From: Candidatus Xenobia bacterium
Lineage (GTDB): Bacteria > Vulcanimicrobiota > Xenobia > Xenobiales > QWHO01
Assembly: GCA_045863235.1 (NCBI GenBank)
Contig: BTUM01000007.1
Location: forward strand, 76,286 to 140,285
DNA: 64,000 nucleotides
Direction: 5' to 3'
Positions 14,462 to 28,065 of this stretch are shown here, piece after piece. Position 1 is the first letter of the stretch. Every line of letters begins with the position of its first letter. The position numbers were made by a program, and so were the translations under genes. Under the pieces are notes generated by a model. That model made no database searches and was not told where the DNA came from. It saw nothing but the letters and a program-made list of their open reading frames with translations.

Positions 14462-16939
14462 TCAGATCTTGTTCAACAGGTCGTACTTGCGCGTGACAGG
14501 AGCGACCGCGGTCAGTCCGGTGTGCAATCCCTCCACCGTCACCGATGACACGCGGGTGCGCCAGGGACGAACCGAGTGGATCAGCCCGCCCCAGCTCTCC
14601 ATACCGGTATCTTTCCGATATTGCCCGGGGAAGAAGATGGGGTCGGGCATCTGGATGGAAAGCCCGCTGGCTGCTCCCAGCGACGCCTCGTTGCGATTCA
14701 CCACCACCGCCTCCTGCAAAAGCGCCTGGCAGCGGGCGGCCAGCTGGGCCACCTCGGCATCGGGACAGCCCTGCTGCAGCTTTTCCAGAAAGCTCCCAAG
14801 GTCGCCGTAGCCCGGGAAGTTCACGAAGCGCTTGAGCCCCAGCCACAAGTTCTCCAGTGTTCCTCGCCAGCCCGGGGCGGTGGACTTCTCCTCGCGAGGG
14901 AAATGGCGCGTCTGGGCGGCCGCTTGCTGGAAGTGCTCGCCGACCACGGGTAGCTTCTCTTGCACTATGGCCGCCAGCTCTTCCACCGAGGCGGTCAGGG
15001 CCGGCAGCTTCTCCAGGTCCACCAGCGAGAGCGTGGGCACCACCTCGTTGCCGCCATGGCGTTTCACCAGCATTTCGCCGAAGGTCTTGGGGTCCTTGTC
15101 GATCTCTCCCAGTCGGGGCAGGATATAGGTCCAGGGCAGACCTGCTTCCCACAGGCTGTCCTGGCTGACCACTGCGTAGCGGGCGTGCTGGCCCAGGTCC
15201 TTGAGCGCTTCCAGGTTGGCCATCTCGCAGGCTTCCATGATCAGCACGTCAACCTTTTTGCCCGTCTGGGCGTGGGTCAGCTCCAGGGCTTTGCTCACGT
15301 CGGCCATCTTCATGCCGGCCAGGCGCTTGTAGCCCAGGCCATGGCCTTCGAGCAGCACGGCAGTGTGCTCGGAAGGGTAACGTTTCATCGAGCGCACCCA
15401 CAGGTTGCTCAGGGCTTCGGGGCTGGGCGCGTCGGTGCTGGAGCTGCGCTCGACCGTGTGGGTCTGGATGGTGTTGCGGCCGGGAGTGTGCACGCCCCCG
15501 GCAGCCAGTTCGTAGGTGCGGGTGCCCGACCAGCTGGCCTCCTCGTGAGCCTCAGCCACCCGGCCGGCGGTCCGGCGGTCCTTGATACCCTGATAGATGG
15601 AGAAAGCCGCCCCCTGAGCCAGCTGGCTTCCCACCAGCAGGGCCGGGATTCCGGCCAGACCGAACAGTCCGAAAGCTGCTGCGCCTGCCGCCACGGCCAG
15701 GGCCGGCAGAGCATAGATCTTGAAAGTCGCGCTGCGCTTTAAAGACTCCACGTCTTTGCCCTCGCGTCGCAACTGCAGCACCACGTGGGCATCCGGATGG
15801 GGGTTGCGCTCGAAGTCGATCACCTGACGGGTGCGCATCGGCTCGAGCTCACTGGCAGTGGCGTCCAGGTGCCCGACGATGGTCCAGGGGCGGGAAGCGG
15901 CCATCGGCACCATCGGCAGGGACTCCCTGACACTGGTTGGAGTTTCCACCTGGCAACCGCATCCGCAGCCGACCGGGTGGCGATGGCTCTCGCCCTGCCC
16001 GTCCACCAGATCGCGGGTGAGGTTGCGTCCCAGCACTCGCCCGCCGTGCCAGCCCTCGATGGCGCCCAGTTTGAGTCCTTTGCCCAGCCCGACCGCGAGG
16101 CCGGCCACAAAACCCGCCGGGCCCAGCACGGCCGAGGCGGCCAGACTGCCAACGGCTCTTGCCATGCTTTCGTGCCAACCGGCCAGCGTTTTGTCCAGCT
16201 TCGAGCCTTCCGCCGAGGGGCCGTATCTCTTGGTCCAGCTCGCTTCCAGGCTGGCGTTTTGACCGAGCCCCGAGTTGACTCCCCGGAAGGCCCCGTAGCT
16301 GGCTCCCACCAGTCCGAAGGCGCACAGTCCGGTCAGGCCGCCCAGCACTCCACCCACCACCGAGCCGGTGGCGGTGGCCGCTCCGGCCAGCGGGCCCAGT
16401 TTTTTCTTATCGGGCTGCACCCAGGGCCGGTTGTGAATGATCTTGAAGCGCGGGGGAGCGGTCGGATCGTGGTCGGGATGCTCCACGACCAGCACCCGCA
16501 GCTCGTCCTTGAGGATCTTGACCCACTCTTCATTGAGGGCTTTCGCCTCGCTGGCCCGCCCGGCTTTCAGCTCGGACTGCATCCGGCCCAGAATCTGGTG
16601 CACATCCGCCAGACGCTCGAGCGCAGCCTGGTCTTCCACCGCAAAGCGCGTTCCCACCTGATCGGGTGGTGTCGTGGCCAGCTGTACCACAAACTGTTTC
16701 AAGCGCTCCTCATACTGGTCGGACGAGCAACGCTTGAGGCGCATCAACCCCGAGAAGGCCCCCTGGACCATGCCATCCTGCTCGACGGCTTCCTTCATGA
16801 AAGCACTGCAGGACGGGGTGTACATGCAGTGAGCGCCCCGCTCGCCGTTGTAGTCGGCCGAGATGTAGTCCTGGTAAAGGCTGACCACCTTGTGAGCGGC
16901 GCCTGCCACGACCTGGCGAGGGATCTGGGTCACCTTCAT
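14462..16939 (-). CDS. Multi-domain membrane protein: N-terminal YidD-like (membrane-protein insertion efficiency factor) domain, two Gly-zipper TM regions, C-terminal clostripain-like (peptidase C11) domain.
   Basis: N-terminus LYQDYIS...CMYTPSCSAFMKEAVEQDGMVQGAFSGLMRLKRC parallels the YidD core (FYQxFIS...CRFxPTCSxYaxeAi...RC). The C-terminal 300 aa carry the C11 His/Cys dyad context (LLEGHGLGYK ... VDVLIMEACEMANLEA). Hydrophobic GxxxG-rich segments lie in the middle. Confidence 0.7.
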   Translation of the reverse strand: MKVTQIPRQVVAGAAHKVVSLYQDYISADYNGERGAHCMYTPSCSAFMKEAVEQDGMVQGAFSGLMRLKRCSSDQYEERLKQFVVQLATTPPDQVGTRFAVEDQAALERLADVHQILGRMQSELKAGRASEAKALNEEWVKILKDELRVLVVEHPDHDPTAPPRFKIIHNRPWVQPDKKKLGPLAGAATATGSVVGGVLGGLTGLCAFGLVGASYGAFRGVNSGLGQNASLEASWTKRYGPSAEGSKLDKTLAGWHESMARAVGSLAASAVLGPAGFVAGLAVGLGKGLKLGAIEGWHGGRVLGRNLTRDLVDGQGESHRHPVGCGCGCQVETPTSVRESLPMVPMAASRPWTIVGHLDATASELEPMRTRQVIDFERNPHPDAHVVLQLRREGKDVESLKRSATFKIYALPALAVAAGAAAFGLFGLAGIPALLVGSQLAQGAAFSIYQGIKDRRTAGRVAEAHEEASWSGTRTYELAAGGVHTPGRNTIQTHTVERSSSTDAPSPEALSNLWVRSMKRYPSEHTAVLLEGHGLGYKRLAGMKMADVSKALELTHAQTGKKVDVLIMEACEMANLEALKDLGQHARYAVVSQDSLWEAGLPWTYILPRLGEIDKDPKTFGEMLVKRHGGNEVVPTLSLVDLEKLPALTASVEELAAIVQEKLPVVGEHFQQAAAQTRHFPREEKSTAPGWRGTLENLWLGLKRFVNFPGYGDLGSFLEKLQQGCPDAEVAQLAARCQALLQEAVVVNRNEASLGAASGLSIQMPDPIFFPGQYRKDTGMESWGGLIHSVRPWRTRVSSVTVEGLHTGLTAVAPVTRKYDLLNKI

Positions 16940-17419: not shown

Positions 17420-18325
17420 ATGGCACGTATTGCTCGCAAAGGACGCGACGGGGCGCTCTATATCGGCTACCGAGAAGAAGACGGCGGGATCTTGATCCCC
17501 GACGAGCGCATGAAGGGGCCGGCCGGCAGCACGCGCACCGGGGATATCGTGGGCCACGAGTTTCGCTCGGAGATTCTCGGCGATGAGCGCATCATCATGG
17601 TCTATCGGCCGCCCGGCTATTCGCCCATGAATCCCTGGCGCTACCCGGTGCTCTACCTCAACGACGGACAGAACATGTTCGATGCCGCCACTTCGGCCTT
17701 CGGTGTCGAATGGCAGGTGGACGAGACGCTCGAGCGCCTCATCTCTGAGCGAGCCATTCAGCCGATTCTGGCGGTAGCGGTCTACAACTCGGCGGAGCGT
17801 TTCGACGAATACACCCCCGCGCCCGATCCCGAGCATGGGGGCGGTGGAGCCGACCGCTACGGGATGTTCCTGGCCAACGAGTTGCAGCCATTCATCAACC
17901 GCGAGTATCGCACCAACACCGATCAGACCGCCTTGATGGGCTCCAGCCTGGGGGGTCTTTGCTCATTGTACCTGGGCTGGCAGTATCCGCGTTGCTTCAA
18001 CCTGGTGGCCGCCCTCTCGCCCTCCCTCTGGTGGGCAGGGCGGGAGCTGACCAGAGCCATTGCCGAGTCTCCCCGCACGTGTGACGACGGGCCGGAGAAG
18101 ATCTGGCTCGACATGGGAACGAAGGAAGACAAGGACGACGACCTGATCGCTGACATTCGCGCCCTGCGCAAGGTTCTGGTGAGCAAGGGATACGTGGTGG
18201 GGGAGAACCTGTTTTATCGCGAGGTCAAGGGGGCCTATCACACCGAGTCTTCCTGGGCCAAGCGGGTGGGGGACGTCTTGCAGGCGTTGTTCCCTCCCGG
18301 TCGAGGCTACTTTACGGCCGACTGA
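17420..18325 (+). CDS. Esterase-family alpha/beta hydrolase (enterochelin-esterase/esterase D-like).
   Basis: Nucleophile elbow LMGSSLGG (GxSxG), central VLYLNDGQNMFD motif, C-terminal His. 301 aa. Confidence 0.7.
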   Translation: MARIARKGRDGALYIGYREEDGGILIPDERMKGPAGSTRTGDIVGHEFRSEILGDERIIMVYRPPGYSPMNPWRYPVLYLNDGQNMFDAATSAFGVEWQVDETLERLISERAIQPILAVAVYNSAERFDEYTPAPDPEHGGGGADRYGMFLANELQPFINREYRTNTDQTALMGSSLGGLCSLYLGWQYPRCFNLVAALSPSLWWAGRELTRAIAESPRTCDDGPEKIWLDMGTKEDKDDDLIADIRALRKVLVSKGYVVGENLFYREVKGAYHTESSWAKRVGDVLQALFPPGRGYFTAD

Positions 18326-18375
18326 CCTGCGTTTTCAATTTCGTGGTGGCTGTCTGGAAGGAGTCCCCCTCGGAT

Positions 18376-18480
18376 GCCGAATCATGCGGCTGGATTTTTT
18401 TTCAAGGAGCTTCGATGCGTTTAAGAACCAGCCTCTACTTGCTAGCTTTGCTCTTCCTGTTCGGCTGTTCCGGCGGGGGG
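18376..18480 (+). repeat. Duplicated leader/5' region, copy A: hairpin-like gccgaatcatgcggc, then T8, SD AAGGAGC, ATG, and signal-peptide codons. Near-identical to 19916-20020.
   Basis: Direct comparison of the two regions (~90% identity across leader, RBS and first ~60 codons). Confidence 0.8.
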
Positions 18481-19782
18481 TCGAGTTCCGCCGGCGGCGG
18501 CGTGCCCGCCCCGCCTCCAGGCCCCCAGCTGGTGAGCATGAAACTCGATGTCGAGGTCCTCGACCAGGCTCAGCGGTCCATCCAGGGCCGTTCGGGGGTC
18601 ATCGAGGTGGTCGCCGAGGTGGTGGACCGCAATACTCTCGATACCGGCACTCTCAGCGGCCGCAAGGTCATCTCGCGAGGGGCGGCCACGGTGGGGGACA
18701 CCGACCGAGTCGTCAAGATCTTGCTGGACATCATTCCGGGCATCTGGGATATCTACATCTTCGGCCTGGACTCCGAGGGCAAGGTGGTGGCACTTTCCAC
18801 CATCGATCAGCTGACCATCACTCCGGGAGTGGTGCTCGAGCAGCGGGTCAGCCTGCAGTCCCAGAGTCGCTCGGTGTTCGTCAATCCGTCCAATGCGGCT
18901 ATCCAGGTCGGACAGCAGCAGCAATTCTCCGCCCTCGTCTTCCTCCCCACCGGGAACAGCACCAGCGTGAACTGGGCCTCGGACAACCCGGCCGTCGCTA
19001 CGGTAGACGCTAACGGCCTGGCGACCGGGTTGGCGGCCGGTGTCACCACCATCCGGGCGACTTCCACGGTGGACAACAGCCTGCAGGGCTCCGCCCAATT
19101 GACCGTGGCTGCCGACAACAATGCCCGCCTTGTTGGCCTTTACACCGTGGCCCTGGCGGGAACGAGCGCGGACGGCCTGGATGTCTTCTCGGTTCTGTCC
19201 AACCTGAATTTGGACGGAGCGGGAGGAGTTACTGATGCCGGCTCCGGTCTCTTCGAGGATGGAGTGCCCGGTCTGCAGCCAGTGACTCTGGGCCTCGTGC
19301 AGTACAGCGTCGCCAATGACGGGACGGTCACCTTTACCGGGAATGCCACCGCCAGTACCGGCGTGGGCCCCCTCTCGGCGGACAATCTGACCATTCCTCT
19401 GACCTTCGCGGGACCGGCGGGGAGCGGCGAGGGGTTTGCCGTTCGCCAGGAGGCGGGCGGGGTGACCCCTGCCTCCATCGCAGGGAACTGGACGGGGGCG
19501 CTTCTGAGGAGTACGGGGGTTCCGTTCGCGCCCGGTACCACGGCGACCGTGACGATCAATGGCAATGGCACGCTCAGTGGAGCCATTCAGGAGCCTGGCC
19601 TGCCCGACGTGACCTTTGCCGGAAACTTCACCGTGACCGCAACTGGCCTGCTGCAGGCAAACGTGGTCGATGGCTTCGGAGATCCCATCGTCATCAACGG
19701 CCAGGTCGGGGCCAACCAGACCCGGATCGTCATCATCGGTCAGGACAGCTTGAATACAAGCTTTGCCGCCGTGCTTCAGTAG
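18415..19782 (+). CDS. Lipoprotein with a Big_2 (bacterial Ig-like) domain; paralog A.
   Basis: ATG at 18415 with AAGGAG 5 nt upstream. Signal peptide MRLRTSLYLLALLFLFGCSGG (lipobox LFGC). Big_2-like segment VFVNPSNAAIQVGQQQQF...VNWASDNPAVATVDANGLATG. Confidence 0.7.
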   Translation: MRLRTSLYLLALLFLFGCSGGGSSSAGGGVPAPPPGPQLVSMKLDVEVLDQAQRSIQGRSGVIEVVAEVVDRNTLDTGTLSGRKVISRGAATVGDTDRVVKILLDIIPGIWDIYIFGLDSEGKVVALSTIDQLTITPGVVLEQRVSLQSQSRSVFVNPSNAAIQVGQQQQFSALVFLPTGNSTSVNWASDNPAVATVDANGLATGLAAGVTTIRATSTVDNSLQGSAQLTVAADNNARLVGLYTVALAGTSADGLDVFSVLSNLNLDGAGGVTDAGSGLFEDGVPGLQPVTLGLVQYSVANDGTVTFTGNATASTGVGPLSADNLTIPLTFAGPAGSGEGFAVRQEAGGVTPASIAGNWTGALLRSTGVPFAPGTTATVTINGNGTLSGAIQEPGLPDVTFAGNFTVTATGLLQANVVDGFGDPIVINGQVGANQTRIVIIGQDSLNTSFAAVLQ

Positions 19783-19793
19783 CTCGTTCTCTG

Positions 19794-19881
19794 CGTTCGA
19801 GCCAGTCCGACTGGCTTGAACGCAGGGTCGTTCGTCTCAGTCAAGCCAGTCACAGGCTCTCTGCTTGTGCTGGCTTGACTG
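19794..19881. promoter_or_regulatory. Array of four alternating-orientation copies of a ~11-bp motif (GACTGGCTTGA / TCAAGCCAGTC) forming two hairpins or palindromic operators upstream of lipoprotein paralog B. It overlaps a TTGACT -35-like hexamer.
   Basis: gttcgagccagtc|cgactggcttgaac and cagtcaagccag...ctggcttgactg. Confidence 0.4.
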
Positions 19882-19915
19882 CGTGTTGGGCTGGAAAAGG
19901 AGTTTGCCCTGAATG

Positions 19916-20020
19916 CCGAATCATGGGGCTGGATTTTTTTTCAAGGAGCTCTGATGCGTTTAAGAACCAGCCTTTACTTGCTAGCTCTGCTCTTCCTGTT
20001 CGGCTGTTCCGGCGGGGGGG
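19916..20020 (+). repeat. Duplicated leader/5' region, copy B (see 18376-18480).
   Basis: Same T8 tract, SD and signal-peptide coding as copy A. Confidence 0.8.
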
Positions 20021-21915
20021 CGAGTTCTGCCGGCGGTGGTGTGCCTGCCCCCCCTCCAGGCCCTCAGTTCGTGAGCATGCGACTCGATGTCGCGGTGCCC
20101 GATCTGGCCCAGCGGGCCGTTCAGAGCCGCTCGCAGATCTTCGAAGTGGTGGTCGAGGTCGTTGATCGGAATTCGCTCGACCCGGGCACCCTCAGCGGCC
20201 GGAAGATCATCTCTCGCGGGGCGGCCTCGGTGGGTGAAACCGACCGGACTGTGAAGGTTCTCCTGGATGTGATTCCGGGGATCTGGGACATCTACATTTT
20301 CGGCCTGGATTCGCAGGGCAAAGTGGCGGCCCTCTCGACCATCGACCAGCTCGCGATCGTCGCGGGCGCCGTCATTGAGCGGAAGGTCAACCTTCAACAG
20401 GTGAACCAGGGAGTCTTCGTGACTCCCACCAGTGCGGCGGTTCCTGTCGGCGGGCAGGCTCAATTTTCAGCCGTGGTCTTCCTGCCGACCGGGACCAGCA
20501 CCAGTGTCAACTGGGTTTCTGATAATCCCGCAGTGGCCGGCGTTGACGCCAACGGCTTGGCGACCGGTTTGTCTCCGGGTCAGGCTCTTATCCGGGCGAT
20601 TTCCACCGTGGACAGCACCCTCCAGGGGACCGGGGTCCTGAATGTGACACCGCCCAATGTCACCGTGCAGTCGGTCACGCTCACTTTCAACCCCGGCTCC
20701 CCGGTGCGGCTTGGCCAGGCGGGTCTGCAGTTCAGCGCAGTTGCGAGTTTTAGCGATGGCACAAGCCAGGCTATTACACCGGACCAGTTCGTCAGCAGCG
20801 ATCCGACGGTGCTATCCGTGGATTCGGCCGGAGCGGCTCAGGCTCTGGACGTGGGCACGAGTGACGTGACGGCGGACTTCATGGGCGTGACGAGCGCACC
20901 GGTGACCGTGGACGTCGAGGCAAGCCGGGTCATCGTCGTGGAGTCCGAGCTCATCCAGCCCGACGAGATTTTCTCCTATCTTCTCGATGAGGGGACGGGC
21001 AGTCTCGTCCAGGTTGATGTCGAGACAGTCCCGGGCGGAGTCGGGGCTGGAATGGGCGGAGATCCTGACAGCGATGCCGTGTTCGTCAGCCAGACCAACA
21101 ACACTCTGGCGATTTACCTGGTGAGCGCACTGGGTATTCTGAACCAGTCCCAGATCATCGGTCTGGGCGGTGCTCCGACGCTTGTGCCCGCCACCGGCGC
21201 GGGAGGCTTCCTCTACCTCGCCGACAACAACCCGACTCCCCCTGATCTTCGCACCTTTGCCTTTGACGGTGTGCTCTACAACCTGGTCGGCCTCTCAAGT
21301 CCTGCTGGCGTTGCCGAGGTCCAGGTGATGGCCGCCAAGAACGGGATTCCAGCACTCTACCTGGCAGATTTCCTCGGGAATCTGTTGAACGGCCTGGTGC
21401 TGACCGGCTCCATTCCGGATGCGGTCGGAACCCAGGTGGGCGGCTCTCCCCAGGCGCTCGGCACTTCGCCTGCTCGCCTCGAGATTCACCCCAGCAACAA
21501 CTTCCTGGTGGTCGGTCGTACCGCTCATCTCGATGTCTTCCCCATCGATGCTGCCGGCAACATCACCGGGCCCGCCATCAGCACCCAGGTGACGGCCGGG
21601 ACGGCTTTCACCGCCCTGGCCATTCACCCGAGCGGGAACTTCGTGGCCGCCTGCACCCAGCAGGCCGGGGGAGTGATCGAGATCTTCCCGATCAACGCTT
21701 CGGGCATCCTGTCGCCGGCGGTGGCTACCATTCCCTCATCCGGCTCGCAGATCTTTGGCCTCGGTTTCAACGCCACCGGGACCTTCCTGATCTATCCGGA
21801 GCTGACCAACAATCAGGTGGTGGTCCAGCGGTTCGATCCGAATACCGGTGCCGTGACCCCCGCCACCACCAGCGGCGGGATCAACCGGCCCTTCGAGATG
21901 TTCATCTTCCCCTGA
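19954..21915 (+). CDS. Lipoprotein, paralog B: same signal peptide and N-terminal domain as 18415-19782 plus two Big_2-like domains and a C-terminal lactonase-like beta-propeller region.
   Basis: The first ~220 aa are ~75% identical to paralog A, including an identical lipobox. The C-terminal 200 aa (HPSNNFLVV...FPIDAAGNITGP...AIHPSGNFVAA...) have repeated propeller-blade-like units. Confidence 0.7.
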   Translation: MRLRTSLYLLALLFLFGCSGGGASSAGGGVPAPPPGPQFVSMRLDVAVPDLAQRAVQSRSQIFEVVVEVVDRNSLDPGTLSGRKIISRGAASVGETDRTVKVLLDVIPGIWDIYIFGLDSQGKVAALSTIDQLAIVAGAVIERKVNLQQVNQGVFVTPTSAAVPVGGQAQFSAVVFLPTGTSTSVNWVSDNPAVAGVDANGLATGLSPGQALIRAISTVDSTLQGTGVLNVTPPNVTVQSVTLTFNPGSPVRLGQAGLQFSAVASFSDGTSQAITPDQFVSSDPTVLSVDSAGAAQALDVGTSDVTADFMGVTSAPVTVDVEASRVIVVESELIQPDEIFSYLLDEGTGSLVQVDVETVPGGVGAGMGGDPDSDAVFVSQTNNTLAIYLVSALGILNQSQIIGLGGAPTLVPATGAGGFLYLADNNPTPPDLRTFAFDGVLYNLVGLSSPAGVAEVQVMAAKNGIPALYLADFLGNLLNGLVLTGSIPDAVGTQVGGSPQALGTSPARLEIHPSNNFLVVGRTAHLDVFPIDAAGNITGPAISTQVTAGTAFTALAIHPSGNFVAACTQQAGGVIEIFPINASGILSPAVATIPSSGSQIFGLGFNATGTFLIYPELTNNQVVVQRFDPNTGAVTPATTSGGINRPFEMFIFP

Positions 21916-21935
21916 CACTCGACGGTAGACCAGCA

Positions 21936-21975
21936 AGAAGGCGCGGAGCCGAAGCATCCGCGCCTTCTTCTGTTG
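21936..21975 (+). terminator. Rho-independent terminator-like hairpin after lipoprotein B (12-bp perfect stem, 9-nt loop, then TCTGTTG).
   Basis: agaaggcgcgga gccgaagca tccgcgccttct tctgtt. Confidence 0.5.
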
Positions 21976-22034
21976 AGGACGAACATACTTTTGAAAGGGA
22001 TTCAACCAGCTCGGGCGTAATTGAAGAACATCCT

Positions 22035-23750
22035 ATGCTCTCCATTTCCGCAAGTGCCGAGTTTCGTCTGGCCGCCGCGGCCGATCTGCCGGCCGAGCTG
22101 GCTCGACTGCCTGAGGGTGCCACCGCCGTGCTCGCGCCCGGTCGCTACCGGCTCGGTGAGCTGACGCTCAAGCGCAACCTGCGATTGGTGGGTGCCGGGC
22201 TGGAGCGCACGGTATTGGAGGGGTCCCTGCGTCTCGAGCAGGGGCAATTCGGGCTGCTCGACCTCACCGTGGGGAAACTGCAGGCTCTCGACTGCCAGCT
22301 CGAGATAGAGCGCTGTCGGCTGCCGGGTATGGCCCTCGAGGGTGAGACCAGCGCCCGGGTGCGCTTCTGCCAGTGCGAGGGAGAAGAGGTGGGCATCCGG
22401 GTGGGCGGAACCGCTCGGGCCGAGCTGGAGAGCAATCGTTGCTGTCAGTGTGCCCTGTACGGCATTCTCTTTCAGGACGAGAGCAGCGGGCGGGCGGTTC
22501 AAAACGATTGCTCCGGCAACCAGGTGGGTATCGGCGTGATGGGGCAGGCCGCTGCGGAGCTTCTTGGTAACCACTGCAGCCAGAACGAGTCGGCCGGCAT
22601 TGCCTACCATCAGGAGGGCGGTGGTTTGGCTCGCAACAATGACTGCGAGGACAACGGCCACCATGGCATCGCTGTGGCCGGTCAGGCGGCCCCCCGTTTG
22701 CAGGGAAACTCCTGCTGTCACAACGGCTTCTGCGGCATCGACTACAGCGGCCAGGCCTCCGGCAGCGCCGAGAGCAACACTTGTTACGGCAACCAGGCCT
22801 ATGGCATTCAGGTAGGGGAGACCTCGGAACCGCGCTTGCTGGCCAATAGTTGCTCGGAGAATGCTCAGGCCGGGCTGGCCTACTTTGGCCGCGGCCAGGG
22901 CTCGGCCGACCGGAATCAGTGCGCTCGCAATCAGTTGCATGGCATCCAGGTGGGTGAGGAGGCTGCTCCCGCCCTACGGAGCAACATCTGCAGCCAGAAC
23001 TTGCTCTCCGGGCTGGCCTACTATGGCAAGAGCGGCGGCCAGGCCGGGCAGAACGAGCTCCACGACAACCAGTACCATGGCCTGCAGGTTTGCGAGCAGG
23101 CTCGTCCCGTGCTATGCGACAACGTGTGCCGGGCCAATGTCATGTCGGGGATCGCCTGTTTTGGCGAATCGCAGCCTGTGCTGGTGCGCAATCAGTGCCT
23201 CCACAATCAGCTGCACGGTCTCTACGTGGGCGAGCAGGCCGTTCCGGTGGCCCATGCCAACCTGGCCCACGAGAACCAGGGCAACGGTTTGCTGTTCACC
23301 GAGGAGGCGGCTGGCCTGGCCACCCACAATCAGGCTGATGCCAACGGCCGCCATGGACTCTACCTGGGCCATCGGGCCACTCCCTTCGCGCGCGAGAACC
23401 TCTGCCGGCGCAACTTGCTGTCGGACGTTGTGACCCTGGGCCAGGTCGACCCCGTGGTCAGCGTGGCGCCCGTGCGACGTCACCGGCTGACCCTCGAGTC
23501 CGAGGGCGGTTCCTTCGAGCTGGCCCTGCCCTTCGAGCTGAAGCCCACCGAGCGGGCGGTGCTCGAGCACCTGGCCCGCTACGGCCGCATGAGCGAGGCG
23601 GCCCTGGGCAAGGCGGTGGGCACCCGGCGCATCGGGGGGCTCTTAGAGAGCCTGGTGGAGCGCCTGAACCGGGCTGGATTTCTGGCTCTGGGCCGTGAGG
23701 GGGACGGCCCGGAGGGCAATGTCTATGAGCTGAGGAGAGACCGACTGTGA
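22035..23750 (+). CDS. Cytoplasmic Cys-rich right-handed parallel beta-helix (PbH1-repeat) protein with a C-terminal winged-helix-like domain; first gene of the four-gene coupled operon.
   Basis: About 17 tandem ~23-aa units of the form NxC..N..xGI/L....A.P.L (e.g. NHCSQNESAGIAYHQEGGGLARN / NDCEDNGHHGIAVAGQAAPRLQG). No signal peptide. C-terminal 90 aa (LEHLARYGRMSEAALGKAVGTRRIGGLLESLVERLNRAGFLAL) look like a winged HTH. The stop overlaps the next gene start (GTGA). Confidence 0.7.
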   Translation: MLSISASAEFRLAAAADLPAELARLPEGATAVLAPGRYRLGELTLKRNLRLVGAGLERTVLEGSLRLEQGQFGLLDLTVGKLQALDCQLEIERCRLPGMALEGETSARVRFCQCEGEEVGIRVGGTARAELESNRCCQCALYGILFQDESSGRAVQNDCSGNQVGIGVMGQAAAELLGNHCSQNESAGIAYHQEGGGLARNNDCEDNGHHGIAVAGQAAPRLQGNSCCHNGFCGIDYSGQASGSAESNTCYGNQAYGIQVGETSEPRLLANSCSENAQAGLAYFGRGQGSADRNQCARNQLHGIQVGEEAAPALRSNICSQNLLSGLAYYGKSGGQAGQNELHDNQYHGLQVCEQARPVLCDNVCRANVMSGIACFGESQPVLVRNQCLHNQLHGLYVGEQAVPVAHANLAHENQGNGLLFTEEAAGLATHNQADANGRHGLYLGHRATPFARENLCRRNLLSDVVTLGQVDPVVSVAPVRRHRLTLESEGGSFELALPFELKPTERAVLEHLARYGRMSEAALGKAVGTRRIGGLLESLVERLNRAGFLALGREGDGPEGNVYELRRDRL

Positions 23751-25066
23751 ACCAAAACCCCCAAGTCCTCGACCGGGCCGTCGCCCTGGGAATCGTCAAC
23801 GCCCTGCGCTCGGGAACCGTTCCCCCTGAAGGGCTCGAGCACTTTGCCGTGGGGCTGGACGCCCCGATGAAAGCCCTGTCCGAGCAGCGGGCCTACGTCA
23901 AGCAGGGCAAGAGCGCCTACAAGTTCATCCGGGGAAGCTACGGGTCGGGCAAGACTTTCTTGACCAGCCTGGCCGGTGCCCAGGCCCTGCAGGATGGCTT
24001 TTTGACCAGTAAAGTGGTCATCTCGGTCGCGGATACGCCTTTGTATCGGCTGAGCGAAGTCTATCGTCGTCTGTGCCAGAACCTGACCCTGCCCGGTCGC
24101 AGGGGTGGGGCCCTGCAAAGCCTGCTCGACCGCTGGCTCTACGGCCTGGAGGAGCAGGTCATCGAGGTGGACGGCGTGGACGAGAATGCACCCGAGTTCG
24201 AAGCCGCCGTGGGCCAGAAAGTGGAGCAGCACCTGGTGGCCGTCGGCCAGCGGGCGGGCCGCCTGGCTGCCTGCCTGAAGGCTTACCACGAGGCCAAGTT
24301 TCGCCAGGATTTCGAGGAGGCCCGGGGCATTCTCGACTGGATGGCGGGGGAGGCCAAAGTGGGCGCGGCCATCAAGCGGGTCGCCGGGGTCACCGGGCAG
24401 ATCGACAACACCGACGCCCTGGTCTTCTTGCGCGGCTGGCTCGAGCTGGTGCGGGCCGCCGGTCACGCCGGCATCCTGGTCATTCTCGACGAGGTGGAGA
24501 CGGTGCTGCGCCTGCGCCGTCCCGAGCGGCTCAAGAGCCTGGAGGTGCTGCGGCAGCTGGTGGACGCCCAGGATAACCAGGAATTCCCCGGTCTACACCT
24601 GCTCATTACCGGCACGCCCGATTTCTTTGACAGCCCGCAAGGGGTGCTCGAGCTCGAGCCCCTGCACGAGCGCATCAAGGTGCTCAAAGCCCACGATCAG
24701 CCCGAGAACCTGCGCCAGCCCCAGATCCCCCTGCGGCCCTTCGATACCGCTCGGCTCTTGCTCGCGGCCCGGCGCATTCGCGAGCTGTACCCGGCCGATC
24801 ACCCCGAGCGCTTGAAAGCCAGGGTGACCGATGATGTCTTCGAGGCCATGGTCGAGCGGGTCACGCGAGGTTTCGGTGGACGGGTCGAAGTCGTGCCGCG
24901 TCTGTTCTTGCGCGAGGTCGTCAACCTGCTCGACCTGGTGGATCAGCATGAGAGCTACGCGCCGATGCGCGACTACAGCTTCGACGAGAGCGCGGTGAAG
25001 ACGCTGGCCCTGGCTCCCGAGGAGGAGGAAGCCCTCAGCGGTGCTGTGCGCGAAGTGGTGCTGTGA
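23747..25066 (+). CDS. P-loop ATPase resembling the BREX ATP-binding protein BrxD (DUF2791-like).
   Basis: Walker A GSYGSGKTFL and Walker B ILVILDEVET in a ~440-aa protein. Domain order and length match BrxD-type ATPases. GTG start overlaps the previous stop; its own stop overlaps the helicase start (GTGCTGTGA). Confidence 0.6.
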   Translation: MNQNPQVLDRAVALGIVNALRSGTVPPEGLEHFAVGLDAPMKALSEQRAYVKQGKSAYKFIRGSYGSGKTFLTSLAGAQALQDGFLTSKVVISVADTPLYRLSEVYRRLCQNLTLPGRRGGALQSLLDRWLYGLEEQVIEVDGVDENAPEFEAAVGQKVEQHLVAVGQRAGRLAACLKAYHEAKFRQDFEEARGILDWMAGEAKVGAAIKRVAGVTGQIDNTDALVFLRGWLELVRAAGHAGILVILDEVETVLRLRRPERLKSLEVLRQLVDAQDNQEFPGLHLLITGTPDFFDSPQGVLELEPLHERIKVLKAHDQPENLRQPQIPLRPFDTARLLLAARRIRELYPADHPERLKARVTDDVFEAMVERVTRGFGGRVEVVPRLFLREVVNLLDLVDQHESYAPMRDYSFDESAVKTLALAPEEEEALSGAVREVVL

Positions 25067-27165
25067 CCTCGGCGCCCCCCAGCGCCTTCTTCCAGCTCTC
25101 CGAGCGAATGCGCCACGGCCTGGTCCACCGACTGGGATGGCGCTCCTTGCGTCCGGTGCAAGAGGTCAGCTTCCCGCCCATCCTGGCGGGCGAGAATGTG
25201 CTGGTTCTGGCCCCCACCGCCGGAGGCAAGACCGAGGCTGCCGTTCTGCCTGTGCTGGACCGACTGGGAACCGGGTTGGGCGCCCTGTTTCTCTCTCCTC
25301 TGCGGGCCCTGCTCAACAACCAGGAGCCGCGCCTCAAGGAGCTCGCCTCCCTGGTCGGGCTGGAGGTCTTCAAGTGGCACGGGGACGTTTCCGCCCATCT
25401 CAAGAAGCGGGTACAGGCCCACCTCTTGATGATCACGCCCGAGTCGCTGGAGGTCATCCTGACCTCGGGCCGGGGCGAGATGTTGAGCGAACTTTCCTGC
25501 GTCATCGTGGATGAGATCCACGCTTTCGCTGGAGATGACAGGGGAGACCATCTCCTGTGCCTGCTCGAGCGCCTGCGCGCCTACACTCCCCACGATTTCC
25601 AGCGCATCGGCCTGTCGGCCACGGTGGGAAATCCCGAGACGCTGTGTGAGTGGCTGCAGGGGTCGAGTCAGCGCCCGCGTCGGGTCGTGTCGCCCACGCG
25701 TGAGCCCGGTCGCCGCTTGATCGAGATCCACCCTCATGAGGAGTTCCAGGACCCGATTCGCACCGCGGCCCGTCTGGCCCGGGGCAAGAAGTCGCTCTTC
25801 TTCGCCGAGTCGCGGGGCAAGGTGGAGCGGGTTCGTGGGCAGCTCCAGGAGCTGGGGGTGCAGGCACTGGTGCACCACTCCTCGCTATCGCGCGAGGTGC
25901 GCGAGGCCACCGAGCAGGCCTTTCGCTCCGGCAGTAACTGTGCCATCGTGTGTACCCGCACCCTGGAGCTGGGATTGGACGTCGGGGACCTCGACCTGGT
26001 GCTGCAGCTCGACGCTCCCACTACGGTCTCGGGGTTTCTCCAGCGCCTCGGACGCACCGGGCGGCGCGACGGGGCGCGCGGGCACATGGCTTTCTGCACC
26101 GATGACCGTTGGAGCTTCCTCAGAGCCATCTCCCTGATTTCCCTGGCTGCCAAGGGGGTGGTCGAGCCGGTGCGCCCCTCGCGCTTTTCGCCCCATCTGT
26201 TCGTTCATCAGGTGCTCACCCGGGCGCTCGAGCAGCGCGGTCTCTCGCGCCCGGCCCTGCTGGCCACCCAGGGCTACTGTTTCTCCGACCTGACTGATTT
26301 GCAGCGCGAGCGCATTCTCGACCACCTGCTCGAGATGGACATCCTGGCCCGGGTCGACGGGCGTCTGGTGGTAGGCCGTCAGGGGGAGAAGGAGTTCGGA
26401 CGGGGCTACTTCCGCGAGCTCTACTCGGTCTTCGAGGCCCCTCGCGAGCTGGCCGTGGAAACTCCCGACGGCAAGCGCATCGGGTCGGTGGAATGCTGGT
26501 TTGCCCAGGTGAGCGGCGATAAACCGTTCTGCTTCCTGCTGGCCGGTCGTGCCTGGCGGGCGGTTCGCTGCCTCTGGGAGCGCTCCGTTCTGCTCGTCGA
26601 GCCAGCCGGCCAGGGGGCCATCCCTTCTTGGAGCGGCGAGCTGGTGCTGCTTCATCGGGACCTGTGCCGCGAGATGCGCGCTCACCTCGTGGCCGAGGAG
26701 CCGGTCTTGTTCTTGTCCGACGCCGCTCAGGCGATCCTCGAGCGGCTGCGCTCCGAGTGGCGCCCGCTCCTTTCTCACGCCCCGGTGATCTTGGAGCGCC
26801 GTGACCAGAAAGCGACCCTCTACACCTTTGCCGGGGGGCGCGTCAACAACGTGGTAGCAAGGCTCTACGCTCAGAGGACGGGGCTCGAGGCCCGGGCCGA
26901 CAACCTGCGGGTGCGCTTTGAGATGCCCACGGATGAGGTCTGGTCCGGCCCCATGGAGCGAGTTCTGGAGGAGCTGGCCACGCCCCTCTCGGGCGAGACC
27001 CTGCAGGCCCTCGTGAAAAGCATCCCCCGCGCGCGCGCCTCGAAGTTCCAGCCCTTTTTGCCGCCCGACCTGGAGGCCGCTTTCGTAGCCGGGCGATTGT
27101 TGGACCTGGAGGGAGCCATGAGCCTGGCGGCCGAAGACCTCGGGGTGGTGACCTTCGATGCCTGA
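25063..27165 (+). CDS. Lhr-like superfamily-2 DEAH helicase (BREX BrxHI-like).
   Basis: Motif I LAPTAGGKTEAA, motif II DEIHAF (DExH), motif III SAT (GLSATVGN), motif VI QRLGRTGRR. 700 aa with a C-terminal domain of Lhr-core type. GTG start overlaps the BrxD-like gene stop. Confidence 0.8.
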   Translation: MTSAPPSAFFQLSERMRHGLVHRLGWRSLRPVQEVSFPPILAGENVLVLAPTAGGKTEAAVLPVLDRLGTGLGALFLSPLRALLNNQEPRLKELASLVGLEVFKWHGDVSAHLKKRVQAHLLMITPESLEVILTSGRGEMLSELSCVIVDEIHAFAGDDRGDHLLCLLERLRAYTPHDFQRIGLSATVGNPETLCEWLQGSSQRPRRVVSPTREPGRRLIEIHPHEEFQDPIRTAARLARGKKSLFFAESRGKVERVRGQLQELGVQALVHHSSLSREVREATEQAFRSGSNCAIVCTRTLELGLDVGDLDLVLQLDAPTTVSGFLQRLGRTGRRDGARGHMAFCTDDRWSFLRAISLISLAAKGVVEPVRPSRFSPHLFVHQVLTRALEQRGLSRPALLATQGYCFSDLTDLQRERILDHLLEMDILARVDGRLVVGRQGEKEFGRGYFRELYSVFEAPRELAVETPDGKRIGSVECWFAQVSGDKPFCFLLAGRAWRAVRCLWERSVLLVEPAGQGAIPSWSGELVLLHRDLCREMRAHLVAEEPVLFLSDAAQAILERLRSEWRPLLSHAPVILERRDQKATLYTFAGGRVNNVVARLYAQRTGLEARADNLRVRFEMPTDEVWSGPMERVLEELATPLSGETLQALVKSIPRARASKFQPFLPPDLEAAFVAGRLLDLEGAMSLAAEDLGVVTFDA

Positions 27166-27496
27166 GCCGAAAAAGTTTGCTCTGAGTGCTGATGAGATCC
27201 GTCCTCTGGTTTCGGGGCGGGGCGCCTGTTTTGCCAGCGATCGGATCACCGTGGACGGGAGCCGGGTCGGCTACTGCTATCGAGAAGAGCCCGACAACGA
27301 GGTGGATAGTGGCTGGAGGTTCCTGGCCGGGGATGAGACGGACGCTTACATGGAGGACGTCGCCAATCACGGTGTTTACGACGTGAACACGATTGCCAAC
27401 TACGACCCGGACATCATCGCCCTGCTCGATTCTCCCATCGGCTCGGAGTTTGCGCGGGATCGGGCCAGCGGGGAGTTCCGGACCCTCCCGGGCTAG
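27158..27496 (+). CDS. Small (112 aa) acidic protein, fourth gene of the coupled operon; function unknown (immunity-protein-like DUF).
   Basis: ATG at 27158 overlaps the helicase stop (GATGCCTGA). Acidic, with a DSGWRF motif. No TM segment or signal peptide. Confidence 0.5.
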   Translation: MPEPKKFALSADEIRPLVSGRGACFASDRITVDGSRVGYCYREEPDNEVDSGWRFLAGDETDAYMEDVANHGVYDVNTIANYDPDIIALLDSPIGSEFARDRASGEFRTLPG

Positions 27497-27527
27497 GAGC
27501 GCAGCCGGAAACCCCCTTGACACGACC
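27497..27527. repeat. ~30-bp motif GAGCGCAGCCGGAAACCC(C/A)TTGAC(-/G)ACACG, copy 1, directly after the stop of the 112-aa gene. Copy 2 is at 45968-45999.
   Basis: 20-nt exact match aggagcgcagccggaaaccc plus a conserved TTGAC...ACACG tail. Both copies lie in convergent intergenic regions. Confidence 0.75.
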
Positions 27528-27570
27528 TACTGTGGTGTCCTCTAAACCTCGTCGCTTTGACCGTGCCAGG

Positions 27571-28065
27571 TTAAAGGAGACGGCCGAGCAGGGCGGGCTC
27601 GTCGGAGGGCTTGTGGAAGATCGAGTCGACCTCCAAGACGCCGTAGGTGTCGAAAGCCTTGACATCGTTGGGCCGCCGGGCGCTGTAAAGGATGCCCTCG
27701 ATGTCTTGCTGCTGGAATTCGTCAAGCAGGCGCTCGGCCCGGTCGCTGGTGCAGAAATTGGGATCGCACCCCTCGAGAATGGTATCCAGCAGTTGCTTGC
27801 GGTAGTCGCTGGGAGGTCGCTGGCTCAACAGCTCGAGAAAGTTCAGGCCGTTGATGCGCTCTTGAAGGTCGGCCAGGTCGAGGTCGAAGTCCGAGACGAT
27901 CGCTCGGAGACGCGAGAGCTTACCGTCCTCGTGGGCTGCCAGGAGCGTCTGCAAGGCTTCACAGGGGCTATCCACGACCCGGCAGCGCAGCTTCTTGGAG
28001 CGCAAACGTAAGACAGCGCGCTCGATCAGTTCAGGCTCATTTTCGATCCACAGTACCCAGGCCAT
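27571..28065 (-). CDS. Degenerate (pseudo-)receiver domain protein.
   Basis: CheY-like beta-alpha pattern VLWIENEP...LRCRVVDS...AIVSDFDLD, but the conserved Asp pair is replaced by E-N-E. 164 aa. Convergent with the four-gene operon. Confidence 0.45.
   Translation of the reverse strand: MAWVLWIENEPELIERAVLRLRSKKLRCRVVDSPCEALQTLLAAHEDGKLSRLRAIVSDFDLDLADLQERINGLNFLELLSQRPPSDYRKQLLDTILEGCDPNFCTSDRAERLLDEFQQQDIEGILYSARRPNDVKAFDTYGVLEVDSIFHKPSDEPALLGRLL

What the first reader, a model, noticed from the sequence alone, without database searches (positions are those of the whole stretch)
22035..23750. Cytoplasmic, cysteine-rich PbH1 beta-helix protein with C-terminal winged helix as lead gene of the ATPase/helicase operon
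Right-handed parallel beta-helix (PbH1) proteins are typically secreted carbohydrate-active or adhesin proteins. This one has no signal peptide. It carries a strictly periodic ~23-aa repeat with a conserved N-x-C (more than 30 Cys in total) and ends in a ~90-aa domain whose pattern (LEHLARYGRMSEAALGKAVG...LVERLNRAGFLAL) looks like a wHTH DNA-binding fold. A long rigid repeat solenoid fused to a DNA-binding module and coupled to an ATPase/helicase could act as a sensor or scaffold, or as a decoy for phage components. The periodic cysteines could form a metal or disulfide ladder.
Basis: partly seen in the sequence, partly recalled or inferred. Interest (0 to 1): 0.6.

Follow-up and report, generated by a model that had tools for sequence, protein, structure and literature searches.

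The report
Beta-helix head on BrxD/BrxHI defence motor
A cytoplasmic beta-helix rod ends in the small winged-helix domain otherwise found at the end of type-2 BREX PglZ, and it leads an operon with the BREX ATPase BrxD and helicase BrxHI but no other BREX genes, so it looks like an undescribed stand-alone relative of the BREX-2 and Shango phage-defence modules.

Summary
ORF 22035-23750 encodes a 571-aa protein without a signal-peptide-like N-terminus. It has about 16 gap-free 23-aa PbH1 coils (AF2 pLDDT 92) and a C-terminal winged helix (pLDDT 95). It has 23 Cys, not more than 30.

Its stop overlaps the start of BrxD (NCBIfam equivalog, 465 bits). BrxD overlaps a BrxHI/Lhr-like helicase, which overlaps an Imm33 gene.

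The C-terminal domain (CTD) is homologous to the C-terminal wHTH of type-2 BREX PglZ (51% identity over 92 aa). In 1.84 billion representatives it occurs about 97 times, always at the C-terminus, behind different heads: beta-helix, PglZ, TPR, STAND-like and unknown.

Every beta-helix relative with the CTD and downstream sequence has BrxD next to it (12 loci, about 7 lineages). None of 11 relatives without the CTD does.

The window holds no PglZ body, PglX, PglY or TerB protein.

Best reading: a stand-alone head-adaptor-motor module related to BREX-2 and Shango, with the beta-helix as a variable sensor or scaffold and the wHTH coupling it to BrxD. Defence function is inferred, not shown.

The cysteines sit at a buried core position that is aliphatic in a sister subclass, so a metal or disulfide ladder is unlikely.

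The parts
21935..21969 (+). Terminator-like hairpin (13-bp perfect stem, 9-nt loop) after the upstream Big_2 gene. It marks the 5' boundary of the transcription unit.
   Evidence: Sequence. RNA fold dG -35.3 kcal/mol, z -5.2, 0 of 200 shuffles as stable. Not listed by the simple terminator scan.
22035..23750 (+). Head gene: 571-aa beta-helix protein with a C-terminal winged helix.
22059..23435 (+). Right-handed parallel beta-helix (residues 9-467): N-terminal cap plus about 16 regular 23-aa coils with an Asn ladder and a buried Cys stack. Net charge -14.
   Evidence: Pfam PF13229 2.4e-48. AF2 pLDDT about 98. Foldseek hits to phage Andhra upper tail 8egr, AlgE4, alginate lyases and NosD. Repeat table and charge. 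Cys positions are aliphatic in the sister subclass.
23472..23747 (+). PglZ_C-like winged-helix domain (residues 480-571), the proposed adaptor to BrxD. E521, R532, G558 and G561 are nearly invariant across all head types.
   Evidence: AF2 pLDDT 95. Winged-helix structural matches. 51% identity over 92 aa to the C-terminus of type-2 BREX PglZ P0021, which carries Pfam PglZ_C PF25863. 97 profile hits, all C-terminal. Conserved columns.
23747..25066 (+). BrxD, an ORC/Cdc6-type AAA+ ATPase (439 aa). Walker A is GSYGSGKT at residue 63; Walker B is ILDEVE.
   Evidence: Pfam BrxC_BrxD 2.3e-121. PADLOC BrxD 2.6e-141. NCBIfam BREX_BrxD equivalog 465 bits against a cut-off of 350. Motifs. GTGA start/stop overlap.
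25063..27165 (+). BrxHI-type SF2 (Lhr/Ski2-like) DExH helicase, 700 aa.
   Evidence: Pfam DEAD and Helicase_C. PADLOC BrxHI 2.3e-210, SngC 1.6e-130. Motifs GGKT, DEIH, SAT, QRLGRTGR. 54% identity to the helicase of type-2 BREX locus L021.
27158..27496 (+). Imm33-domain protein (112 aa), translationally coupled to the helicase. A lineage-specific accessory, not a core part.
   Evidence: Pfam PF09951 1.2e-34. 8-nt overlap. Present only in the ~93%-identical relatives L007, L008, L024 and L025; absent from L009, L001 and L026.

Best explanation
The locus is a stand-alone three-gene module, plus an accessory Imm33 gene, built as head - adaptor - motor.

- Head: a cytoplasmic, very regular right-handed beta-helix rod.
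- Adaptor: its C-terminal ~90-aa winged helix, homologous to the C-terminal wHTH that distinguishes type-2 BREX PglZ.
- Motor: BrxD (an ORC/Cdc6-type AAA+ ATPase said to lack a DNA-binding domain of its own) and the Lhr/Ski2-like helicase BrxHI.

Proposed mechanism, all inferred. The winged helix docks the head onto BrxD and/or supplies in trans the winged-helix DNA contact that ORC/Cdc6 proteins normally carry. BrxD then loads or activates BrxHI on target, probably invading, DNA. The fast-evolving beta-helix acts as the recognition surface or rigid scaffold.

By homology to type-2 BREX and by architectural likeness to Shango, the most likely biological role is defence against phages or plasmids.

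Shown here: domain architecture, translational coupling, homology of the CTD to the PglZ C-terminus, and the strict CTD-BrxD co-occurrence.

Inferred: the physical CTD-BrxD contact, DNA binding, what the beta-helix binds, and the defence phenotype.
For: 1. Architecture.
2. BrxD passes the NCBIfam equivalog cut-off. BrxHI gives PADLOC 2.3e-210. Catalytic motifs are intact in both.
3. Four genes have overlapping stop and start codons, and a terminator-like hairpin lies upstream.
4. The CTD is 51% identical over 92 aa to the C-terminus of PglZ P0021. P0021 sits in a true type-2 BREX locus (PglY-PglZ-3 small genes-BrxD-helicase) and carries Pfam PglZ_C. Rakesh & Krishnan 2026 (PMC12839542) state that type-2 PglZ uniquely ends in a three-stranded wHTH, and they discuss BrxD and BrxHI as components specific to type-2 BREX.
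5. A CTD profile search of 1.84e9 representatives gave 97 hits, all at the C-terminus. The heads differ: beta-helix, PglZ, TPR, STAND-like and unknown.
6. Co-occurrence: 12 of 12 beta-helix loci with the CTD and downstream sequence have BrxD downstream (about 7 lineages). 0 of 11 CTD-less beta-helix loci have BrxD or BrxHI. By my hand calculation, a Fisher exact test on 7 vs 10 lineages gives p about 5e-5.
7. Other heads are also linked to BrxD: TPR L012 and L013, unknown head L023 in the order BrxD-helicase-head, STAND-like L038.
8. Conservation order is BrxD 63-74% > CTD 53-60% > BrxHI 44-56% > beta-helix 27-43%, as expected for a variable sensor on a conserved motor.
9. Flanking genes differ between lineages, as expected for a mobile accessory module.
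10. Shango is experimentally anti-phage and has the same layout of head, BrxD-like ATPase and BrxHI-like helicase.
Against: - There is no experimental evidence for defence or for any interaction.
- The window is not an obvious defence island. Neighbours are Big_2 proteins, an esterase, a VIT/VWA protein and a C11 peptidase.
- PADLOC has no model matching the head, and no relatives were found in viral contigs.
- No nuclease or other obvious effector is present, so how restriction would be executed is unclear.
- Two lineages (L010, L011) and the TPR class lack the helicase nearby, so the helicase is not obligatory.
- One CTD protein (L039) has no BrxD within 7 kb.
- Winged-helix structural matches are generic, all with E >= 0.011. 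They include both DNA-binding and purely protein-binding winged helices, so they do not tell the two roles apart.
Confidence: 0.55

Rival explanations
1. Decayed remnant of a type-2 BREX system. PglW, PglX, PglY and the PglZ body were lost, and an unrelated beta-helix gene became fused to the leftover PglZ tail. The operon would have no function of its own.
For: BrxD and BrxHI are 63% and 54% identical to those of a true type-2 BREX locus. The CTD is PglZ-derived. No other BREX gene lies in the 64-kb window.
Against: The same beta-helix-CTD-BrxD arrangement is kept with intact ORFs in about 7 lineages at 27-43% head identity. Catalytic motifs are intact. Genes are translationally coupled. Several other non-PglZ heads carry the same CTD next to BrxD.
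Confidence: 0.08
2. A housekeeping or stress-related DNA-repair or replication-restart module. An Lhr-like helicase would be loaded by an ORC-like ATPase, and the beta-helix-wHTH protein would act as a DNA-bound scaffold, with no role in immunity.
For: The best NCBIfam matches of the helicase are the ligase-associated DNA-damage-response DEXH helicase and Lhr-type helicases, all below cut-off. The window is not a visible defence island.
Against: The family is very rare and patchy: 9 word-index hits in 5.8e9 proteins and 97 CTD hits in 1.84e9 representatives. Flanking genes differ between lineages. The closest relatives of both enzymes are BREX-2 and Shango components.
Confidence: 0.15
3. The winged helix is mainly a sequence-specific DNA-binding or autoregulatory domain. 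It would be a transcription-factor module that tethers the head to an operator or to target DNA, and it would not contact BrxD. Co-occurrence with BrxD would only reflect shared ancestry of the operon.
For: Fold matches include MarR-family regulators and the SaeR DNA-binding domain. A conserved T-R-R motif sits at the start of helix 3, the usual recognition helix. Weak Pfam hits to HTH_24, TrmB and MarR.
Against: The CTD is kept behind unrelated heads and in different gene orders, nearly always next to BrxD. That is hard to explain by operon ancestry alone. BrxD is reported to have no DNA-binding domain of its own. DNA binding and BrxD docking are not mutually exclusive.
Confidence: 0.15
4. 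An ordinary secreted carbohydrate-active or adhesin beta-helix protein that happens to lie next to an ATPase/helicase pair.
For: Fold and Pfam matches are to alginate epimerases and lyases, NosD and pertactin. One CTD-less relative (P0006) has a signal-peptide-like N-terminus.
Against: No signal peptide or TM segment. There is a 4-nt overlap with brxD. CTD-BrxD co-occurrence is perfect among beta-helix loci. The coils are featureless and indel-free, without the loops that form catalytic grooves. The NosD and AlgG NCBIfam scores are far below cut-off: 37 vs 300 and 26 vs 700.
Confidence: 0.02

Closest known systems
Type-2 BREX / Pgl system, specifically its PglZ-BrxD-BrxHI segment
   Same: BrxD meets the NCBIfam equivalog. 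BrxD and BrxHI are 63% and 54% identical to those of the true type-2 locus L021, and 43% and 43% to those of the Azospirillum plasmid locus L016. The head's C-terminal wHTH is homologous to the type-2-specific PglZ C-terminal wHTH. The gene order head -> BrxD -> BrxHI is the same.
   Different: The window has no PglZ phosphodiesterase body, no PglX methyltransferase and no PglY/BrxC. A PglW query was not available. With no methyltransferase there can be no BREX-style self-marking. The head is a beta-helix rather than an enzyme.
Shango (SngA TerB protein, SngB ATPase, SngC helicase), experimentally anti-phage
   Same: A three-gene operon of head protein, BrxD-like ATPase and BrxHI-like helicase with overlapping or closely spaced genes. 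PADLOC SngB scores 1.5e-45 and SngC 1.6e-130 on the window proteins. It stands alone, with no methyltransferase.
   Different: The enzymes are only 24-32% identical. The Shango head is TerB-N/TerB/TerB-C, not a beta-helix. Homology between TerB_C and the CTD is not demonstrated: hhalign E 0.07-0.11, best Pfam TerB_C E 0.036. No SngA homologue lies in the window.
PbH1 / NosD / CASH right-handed parallel beta-helix proteins
   Same: Same fold and repeat signature, including the Asn ladder.
   Different: This protein is cytoplasmic. It is exceptionally regular, with a 23-aa period, no insertions and a 46-aa super-period. It has no catalytic-groove loops, is fused to a winged helix, and is genetically coupled to a AAA+/helicase pair.
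ORC/Cdc6 initiators (AAA+ module plus C-terminal winged helix)
   Same: BrxD is classified as ORC/Cdc6-type AAA+ but lacks a DNA-binding domain. A winged helix is supplied by the adjacent gene product, so the pair resembles a split ORC/Cdc6.
   Different: This is an analogy only. Neither the CTD-BrxD contact nor DNA binding was tested, and the top structural matches of the CTD are not ORC/Cdc6 winged helices.

Membership tests
Type-2 BREX (Pgl) | PglZ alkaline-phosphatase-fold domain | tested here: not met
   No Pfam PglZ hit on any operon protein. tblastn with three PglZ proteins matches only the last ~90 aa, at window 23472-23747.
Type-2 BREX (Pgl) | PglX/BrxX methyltransferase and PglY/BrxC ATPase in the locus | tested here: not met
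   tblastn of L016 PglX and L021 PglY against the 64-kb window gave no hit. Genes outside the window cannot be excluded. PglW was not tested because no query was available.
Type-2 BREX (Pgl) | BrxD ATPase and BrxHI helicase as a linked pair | tested here: met
   NCBIfam BREX_BrxD 465 bits against a cut-off of 350. PADLOC BrxD 2.6e-141 and BrxHI 2.3e-210. 4-nt gene overlap.
Type-2 BREX (Pgl) | Type-2-specific C-terminal wHTH of PglZ (Pfam PglZ_C, PF25863) | tested here: met
   Homology to PglZ C-termini: 51% identity over 92 aa, E 1.7e-18, and profile hits to PglZ proteins with E 1e-11 to 1e-19. PF25863 itself is not in the local Pfam copy, so the model score could not be computed.
Shango | SngA head with TerB / TerB-N / TerB-C domains | tested here: not met
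   No TerB Pfam or PADLOC SngA hit on the head. tblastn with two SngA proteins finds nothing in the window. TerB_C similarity of the CTD is sub-threshold.
Shango | SngB-type ATPase and SngC-type helicase in one operon with the head gene | tested here: met
   PADLOC SngB 1.5e-45 and SngC 1.6e-130, though the BrxD and BrxHI models score much higher. Same layout as the Shango loci L014, L015 and L017-L020.
Right-handed parallel beta-helix (Pfam Beta_helix / PbH1) | Repeated ~22-24-aa coils forming a three-sheet right-handed helix | tested here: met
   PF13229 164 bits against a cut-off of 25.9. TIGR03804 74 bits against 19.45. AF2 pLDDT about 98 with three strands per coil. Foldseek prob 1.0 to AlgE4, alginate lyases and NosD.
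NosD (copper-chaperone-type periplasmic beta-helix) | Full-length NosD family score and periplasmic location | tested here: not met
   TIGR04247 37 bits against a cut-off of 300. No signal peptide. No nos genes nearby.
Winged helix-turn-helix | H1-(strand)-H2-H3-beta-hairpin wing topology | tested here: met
   AF2 secondary structure at pLDDT 95. The top Foldseek hits are winged-helix proteins or domains, TM 0.5-0.6, prob ~1.0, E >= 0.011.
Winged helix-turn-helix | DNA binding | not testable with these tools
   Needs EMSA or a structure with DNA. Structural neighbours include both DNA-binding (MarR, SaeR) and protein-binding (ESCRT-II, cullin, ScpB, MukE) winged helices.

The most novel reading that the evidence does not exclude
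The PglZ_C-like winged helix is a universal docking adaptor for the BrxD AAA+ ATPase. It defines a hitherto unrecognised modular family (head - wHTH adaptor - BrxD +/- BrxHI) in which interchangeable heads plug into one conserved motor. The heads seen here are PglZ nuclease/phosphodiesterase, beta-helix, TPR, STAND-like NTPase and several unknown domains.

On this reading, type-2 BREX is a BREX core that captured one such module. The beta-helix version is a stand-alone immune sensor whose rod binds a linear phage polymer or a phage structural protein. Orphan heads elsewhere in a genome (for example L039, in the same MAG as L009) may share a single motor in trans.
Probability: 0.4. Interest if true: 0.72.

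Novelty: new variant of a known kind. Interest (0 to 1): 0.58.

Why it matters
BrxD and BrxHI are the least understood parts of type-2 BREX. A 2026 survey calls BrxD 'specific to Type-2 BREX' with an 'uncharacterized role'.

This locus shows three things:
- The BrxD/BrxHI pair exists outside BREX.
- The one feature that travels with BrxD is the small winged helix at the end of the preceding protein.
- Very different heads, including a catalytically featureless beta-helix rod, can occupy the place of PglZ.

That gives a minimal three-gene system in which to test what BrxD does, for example helicase loading through a trans-supplied winged helix. It also suggests how BREX-2, Shango and these modules relate, and it adds cytoplasmic beta-helices to the candidate sensor domains of prokaryotic immunity.

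If the defence role is not borne out, the finding still re-annotates a protein that pipelines would call a 'parallel beta-helix repeat protein' lying next to a 'BREX system' gene where no BREX exists.

Tried and rejected
1. CTD homologous to TerB_C of Shango SngA. This was prompted by a weak Pfam hit (E 0.25; best 0.036 in 3 of 37 members). I tested it with hhalign against single SngA tails (E 0.36-0.75), against 6 SngA tails (E 0.07) and against 31-47 TerB_C sequences (E 0.067-0.11), and with reciprocal hmmsearch (E >= 0.07). The register is consistent in H1-H2 but never significant, so it is left as unproven.
2. Sequence search of the CTD against PDB: nothing below E 0.18.
3. PADLOC on the head or on the CTD, even at E <= 10: no hit.
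4. The search for related loci with the CTD alignment A2 failed because no stretch was conserved enough. The viral-contig scan found no relatives.
5. The word-index search with the CTD profile returned only short fragments.
7. The sigma-70 promoter scan of the operon found nothing. The host is an Eremiobacterota/Vulcanimicrobiota-like organism, so this says little.
8. Metal or disulfide Cys ladder: rejected because the positions are aliphatic in the sister subclass.
9. A catalytic patch on the helix: per-coil conservation shows only a mild peak at coils 11-12, 0.59 and 0.46 against about 0.35 elsewhere. No conclusion was drawn.
Full report
**Observation**

ORF 22035..23750 (+) is real and is the longest possible reading of that frame. 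It encodes 571 aa. Pfam gives Beta_helix PF13229 (E 2.4e-48, four stretches) and NosD PF05048 (8e-22). NCBIfam gives the parallel beta-helix repeat TIGR03804. The NosD and AlgG family models score far below their cut-offs.

The repeat is strikingly regular. About 16 coils of exactly 23 residues run without a single indel between residues 89 and 479. There is a 46-residue super-period that alternates 'HGIQVGxxAxPxL' and 'SGLAYxGxSGGxA' coils. Asn is at repeat position 22 in 13 of 16 coils and Cys at position 1 in 11 of 16. The protein has 23 cysteines, not 'more than 30'.

No segment looks like a signal peptide or a membrane helix: the maximum 15-residue hydropathy is 1.28, and the first 20 residues contain acidic residues. 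This is a heuristic, not a SignalP run.

AlphaFold2 with a shallow 7-sequence alignment gives pLDDT 92.1. It shows an uninterrupted beta-helix over residues 9-467, a low-confidence linker (474-481) and a compact C-terminal domain. Modelled alone with 37 homologues, that domain reaches pLDDT 95. Its topology is beta-hairpin, H1, short strand, H2, H3, two-strand wing. The top Foldseek hits are winged-helix proteins or domains: MarR-family PcaV, ESCRT-II, SaeR, cullins, ScpB and MukE. TM-scores are 0.5-0.6 and probability is about 1, but every E-value is 0.011 or higher. The whole-protein model matches phage Andhra upper-tail protein, AlgE4, alginate lyases, NosD and pertactin, which is the generic right-handed beta-helix.

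**Operon**

The stop of the head gene overlaps the GTG start of the next gene (GTGA, 23747/23750). That gene's stop overlaps the next start in the same way (25063/25066). The third gene's stop overlaps an ATG by 8 nt (27158/27165). Upstream, a perfect 13-bp hairpin at 21935-21969 (dG -35.3 kcal/mol, z -5.2) follows the stop of an unrelated Big_2 gene. The beta-helix gene is therefore the lead gene of a four-gene unit.

- Gene 2 is BrxD: Pfam BrxC_BrxD 2.3e-121, PADLOC BrxD 2.6e-141, and the NCBIfam BREX_BrxD equivalog at 465 bits against a cut-off of 350. Walker A and B motifs are intact.
- Gene 3 is a BrxHI-type, Lhr/Ski2-like DExH helicase: PADLOC BrxHI 2.3e-210, with motifs GGKT, DEIH, SAT and QRLGRTGR.
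- Gene 4 is an Imm33-domain protein (1.2e-34).

The Shango models SngB (1.5e-45) and SngC (1.6e-130) also match genes 2 and 3, with lower scores. Nothing in PADLOC matches the head, even at E <= 10.

**What the C-terminal domain is**

No family in the local Pfam copy covers it. There are only weak HTH_24, AsnC-type HTH, TrmB, MarR and TerB_C hits, and no PDB sequence matches.

A profile of five CTDs was searched against 1.84 billion cluster representatives. It found 97 proteins (50 at E <= 1e-10), and the match was at the extreme C-terminus every time. The N-terminal parts differ:
- beta-helices of about 565-611 aa;
- PglZ-domain proteins of 830-1030 aa;
- TPR proteins of about 600 aa;
- a STAND/AAA_16-like protein;
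- several heads with no Pfam match.

PglZ protein P0021 lies in a bona fide type-2 BREX locus: PglY, then PglZ, three small genes, BrxD, and a DEAD/Lhr-WHD helicase. It carries the newer Pfam domain PglZ_C (PF25863) at its end. The window's CTD is 51% identical to that tail over 92 residues.

This agrees with Rakesh & Krishnan 2026 (PMC12839542). [quoted passage not shown] They also state that BrxD and BrxHI form a tightly linked dyad, that BrxD's role is specific to type-2 BREX and uncharacterised, and that BrxD lacks any DNA-binding domain. That paper does not describe BrxD/BrxHI outside BREX or any beta-helix partner.

**Co-occurrence test**

I collected 39 loci from assemblies, GTDB genomes, metagenomes and plasmids and screened 37 of them by tblastn.

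- Every beta-helix relative that has the CTD and has sequence downstream also has BrxD as the next same-strand gene. These are the window, L001, L002, L004, L007-L011 and L024-L026: 12 loci in about 7 independent lineages. In L004 one opposite-strand glycosyltransferase gene is interposed.
- None of the 11 beta-helix relatives that lack the CTD has BrxD or BrxHI in its flanks.
- My hand calculation of a Fisher exact test on 7 vs 10 lineages gives p of about 5e-5.

BrxHI follows BrxD in the window group, L009, L001 and L026. It is missing near L010 and L011.

Other heads behave in the same way:
- TPR heads in L012 and L013 are followed by BrxD, with no helicase.
- An unknown 446-aa head in L023 follows BrxD-helicase.
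- The STAND-like head in L038 is followed by Uma2 and then BrxD.
- The one exception, L039, is an orphan head beside a WYL regulator. It comes from the same MAG as L009, which carries a complete beta-helix/BrxD/BrxHI operon.

Identity to the window falls in the order BrxD (63-74%) > CTD (53-60%) > BrxHI (44-56%) > beta-helix (27-43%).

The window itself contains no PglZ body, PglX, PglY or SngA homologue. Its other genes give no hint of a defence island. Imm33 occurs only in the ~93%-identical relatives and is absent from the 72% relative L009, so it is an accessory.

The organism is close to Eremiobacterota/Vulcanimicrobiota MAGs.

**Cysteines**

The ladder positions are Cys in the window's subclass (Q, P0001, P0002, P0003, P0005, P0012). 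In the sister subclass (L010, P0014, P0019, P0020, P0022, P0023) they are L, V, F, I or A, yet that subclass keeps the same CTD, and L010 of that subclass, together with its relative L011, is followed by BrxD. In the window protein itself, the three non-Cys coils have L or A at this position. The position is therefore a buried core stack, not a conserved metal or disulfide site.

**Mechanism (inferred)**

The data fit a head-adaptor-motor design. The winged helix is the only element that always travels with BrxD, whatever the head and whatever the gene order. BrxD is an ORC/Cdc6-type AAA+ protein without the winged helix such proteins normally use on DNA.

I therefore propose that the CTD docks the head onto BrxD and/or supplies the DNA contact in trans, and that BrxD loads or activates BrxHI. 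In BREX-2 this would tether the PglZ effector to the motor. Here the head is an acidic (net -14), featureless rod. It is best read as a recognition surface or scaffold, and it evolves faster than the rest of the system.

What it recognises is unknown. No nuclease is present, so the executing step is unclear; it could be helicase-driven disruption of replication intermediates or recruitment of a trans factor.

**Comparison with known systems**

The closest systems are the PglZ-BrxD-BrxHI segment of type-2 BREX (homologous in all three positions, but without modification or BREX core genes here) and Shango (the same three-gene layout, experimentally anti-phage). Shango differs in having a TerB head and enzymes that are only 24-32% identical.

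I could not show that Shango's TerB_C domain is homologous to the CTD. hhalign gave E 0.067-0.11 with a consistent register.

The locus fails the membership tests for BREX (no PglZ body, PglX or PglY) and for Shango (no TerB). I file it as a new variant of the BrxD/BrxHI-type module.

**Verdict**

The novelty lies in the stand-alone beta-helix-headed BrxD/BrxHI module and in the portable PglZ_C-type adaptor. The defence function is plausible but untested.

Noticed in passing
window 27158-27496 (+): An Imm33 (polymorphic-toxin immunity) domain gene is translationally coupled to the BrxHI helicase by an 8-nt overlap. It is present only in the ~93%-identical relatives and absent from the 72% relative L009 and from more distant loci. 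No cognate toxin gene is evident.
   Followed up: partly
window 21935-21969 (+): A perfect 13-bp GC-rich hairpin with a 9-nt loop (dG -35.3 kcal/mol, z -5.2) lies after the Big_2 gene stop. It was not reported by the simple terminator scan.
   Followed up: yes
L039 7001-8515 (NCBI GCA_039809865.1, contig JBDHVW010000099.1): An orphan 504-aa protein with an unknown head carries the same C-terminal winged helix. It sits next to a WYL-domain regulator, with a SIR2 gene about 3 kb away and no BrxD within 7 kb. It is in the same MAG as L009, which has the full beta-helix/BrxD/BrxHI operon, so the head may share that motor in trans.
   Followed up: partly
L010 9497-12597 and L011 9638-12825: A two-gene variant: a Cys-poor beta-helix with the same CTD, followed by BrxD but no helicase. 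It is flanked by MutS2 upstream and a gamma-glutamyltranspeptidase-like gene downstream (assigned by eye, not scanned). L010 is labelled Selenomonadaceae and L008 Burkholderiales, but both share sequence or synteny with Vulcanimicrobiota/Eremiobacterota contigs, which suggests mis-binning.
   Followed up: partly
L012 6371-10702 and L013 6413-9520: TPR-headed members. The gene calls are split, probably by frameshifts in long-read assemblies. The CTD is followed by BrxD and then, in L012, by a 384-aa protein with a signal-peptide-like N-terminus instead of a helicase.
   Followed up: no
L002 3-746 (- strand): A BrxHI-like N-terminal fragment (56% identity) lies on the opposite strand at the far end of the contig, about 10 kb from the beta-helix/BrxD pair. 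This may be a rearrangement or an assembly artefact.
   Followed up: no
L021 11957-13469: In a true type-2 BREX locus, three small genes of unknown function (122, 224 and 158 aa) lie between PglZ and BrxD. They have no counterpart in the window.
   Followed up: partly
window 14462-16939 (-): A single 825-aa ORF gives both a YidD (membrane-insertion efficiency factor) hit at its N-terminus and a Peptidase_C11 (clostripain) hit. This is either an unusual fusion or an over-extended ORF.
   Followed up: no
window 17420-21915 (+) and 31267-33771 (-): The neighbours are an esterase, two tandem Big_2 proteins (the second has a lactonase-like beta-propeller) and a VIT/VWA protein. None is defence-related, so the operon is not in an obvious defence island.
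   Followed up: partly
window 22002-22940 (-) and 27517-28011 (+) / 27571-28065 (-): Long ORFs overlap real genes on the opposite strand and are probably shadow ORFs of GC-rich DNA. For the 164-aa pair downstream of Imm33, it is unclear which strand is coding. Neither matches NCBIfam or Pfam.
   Followed up: partly
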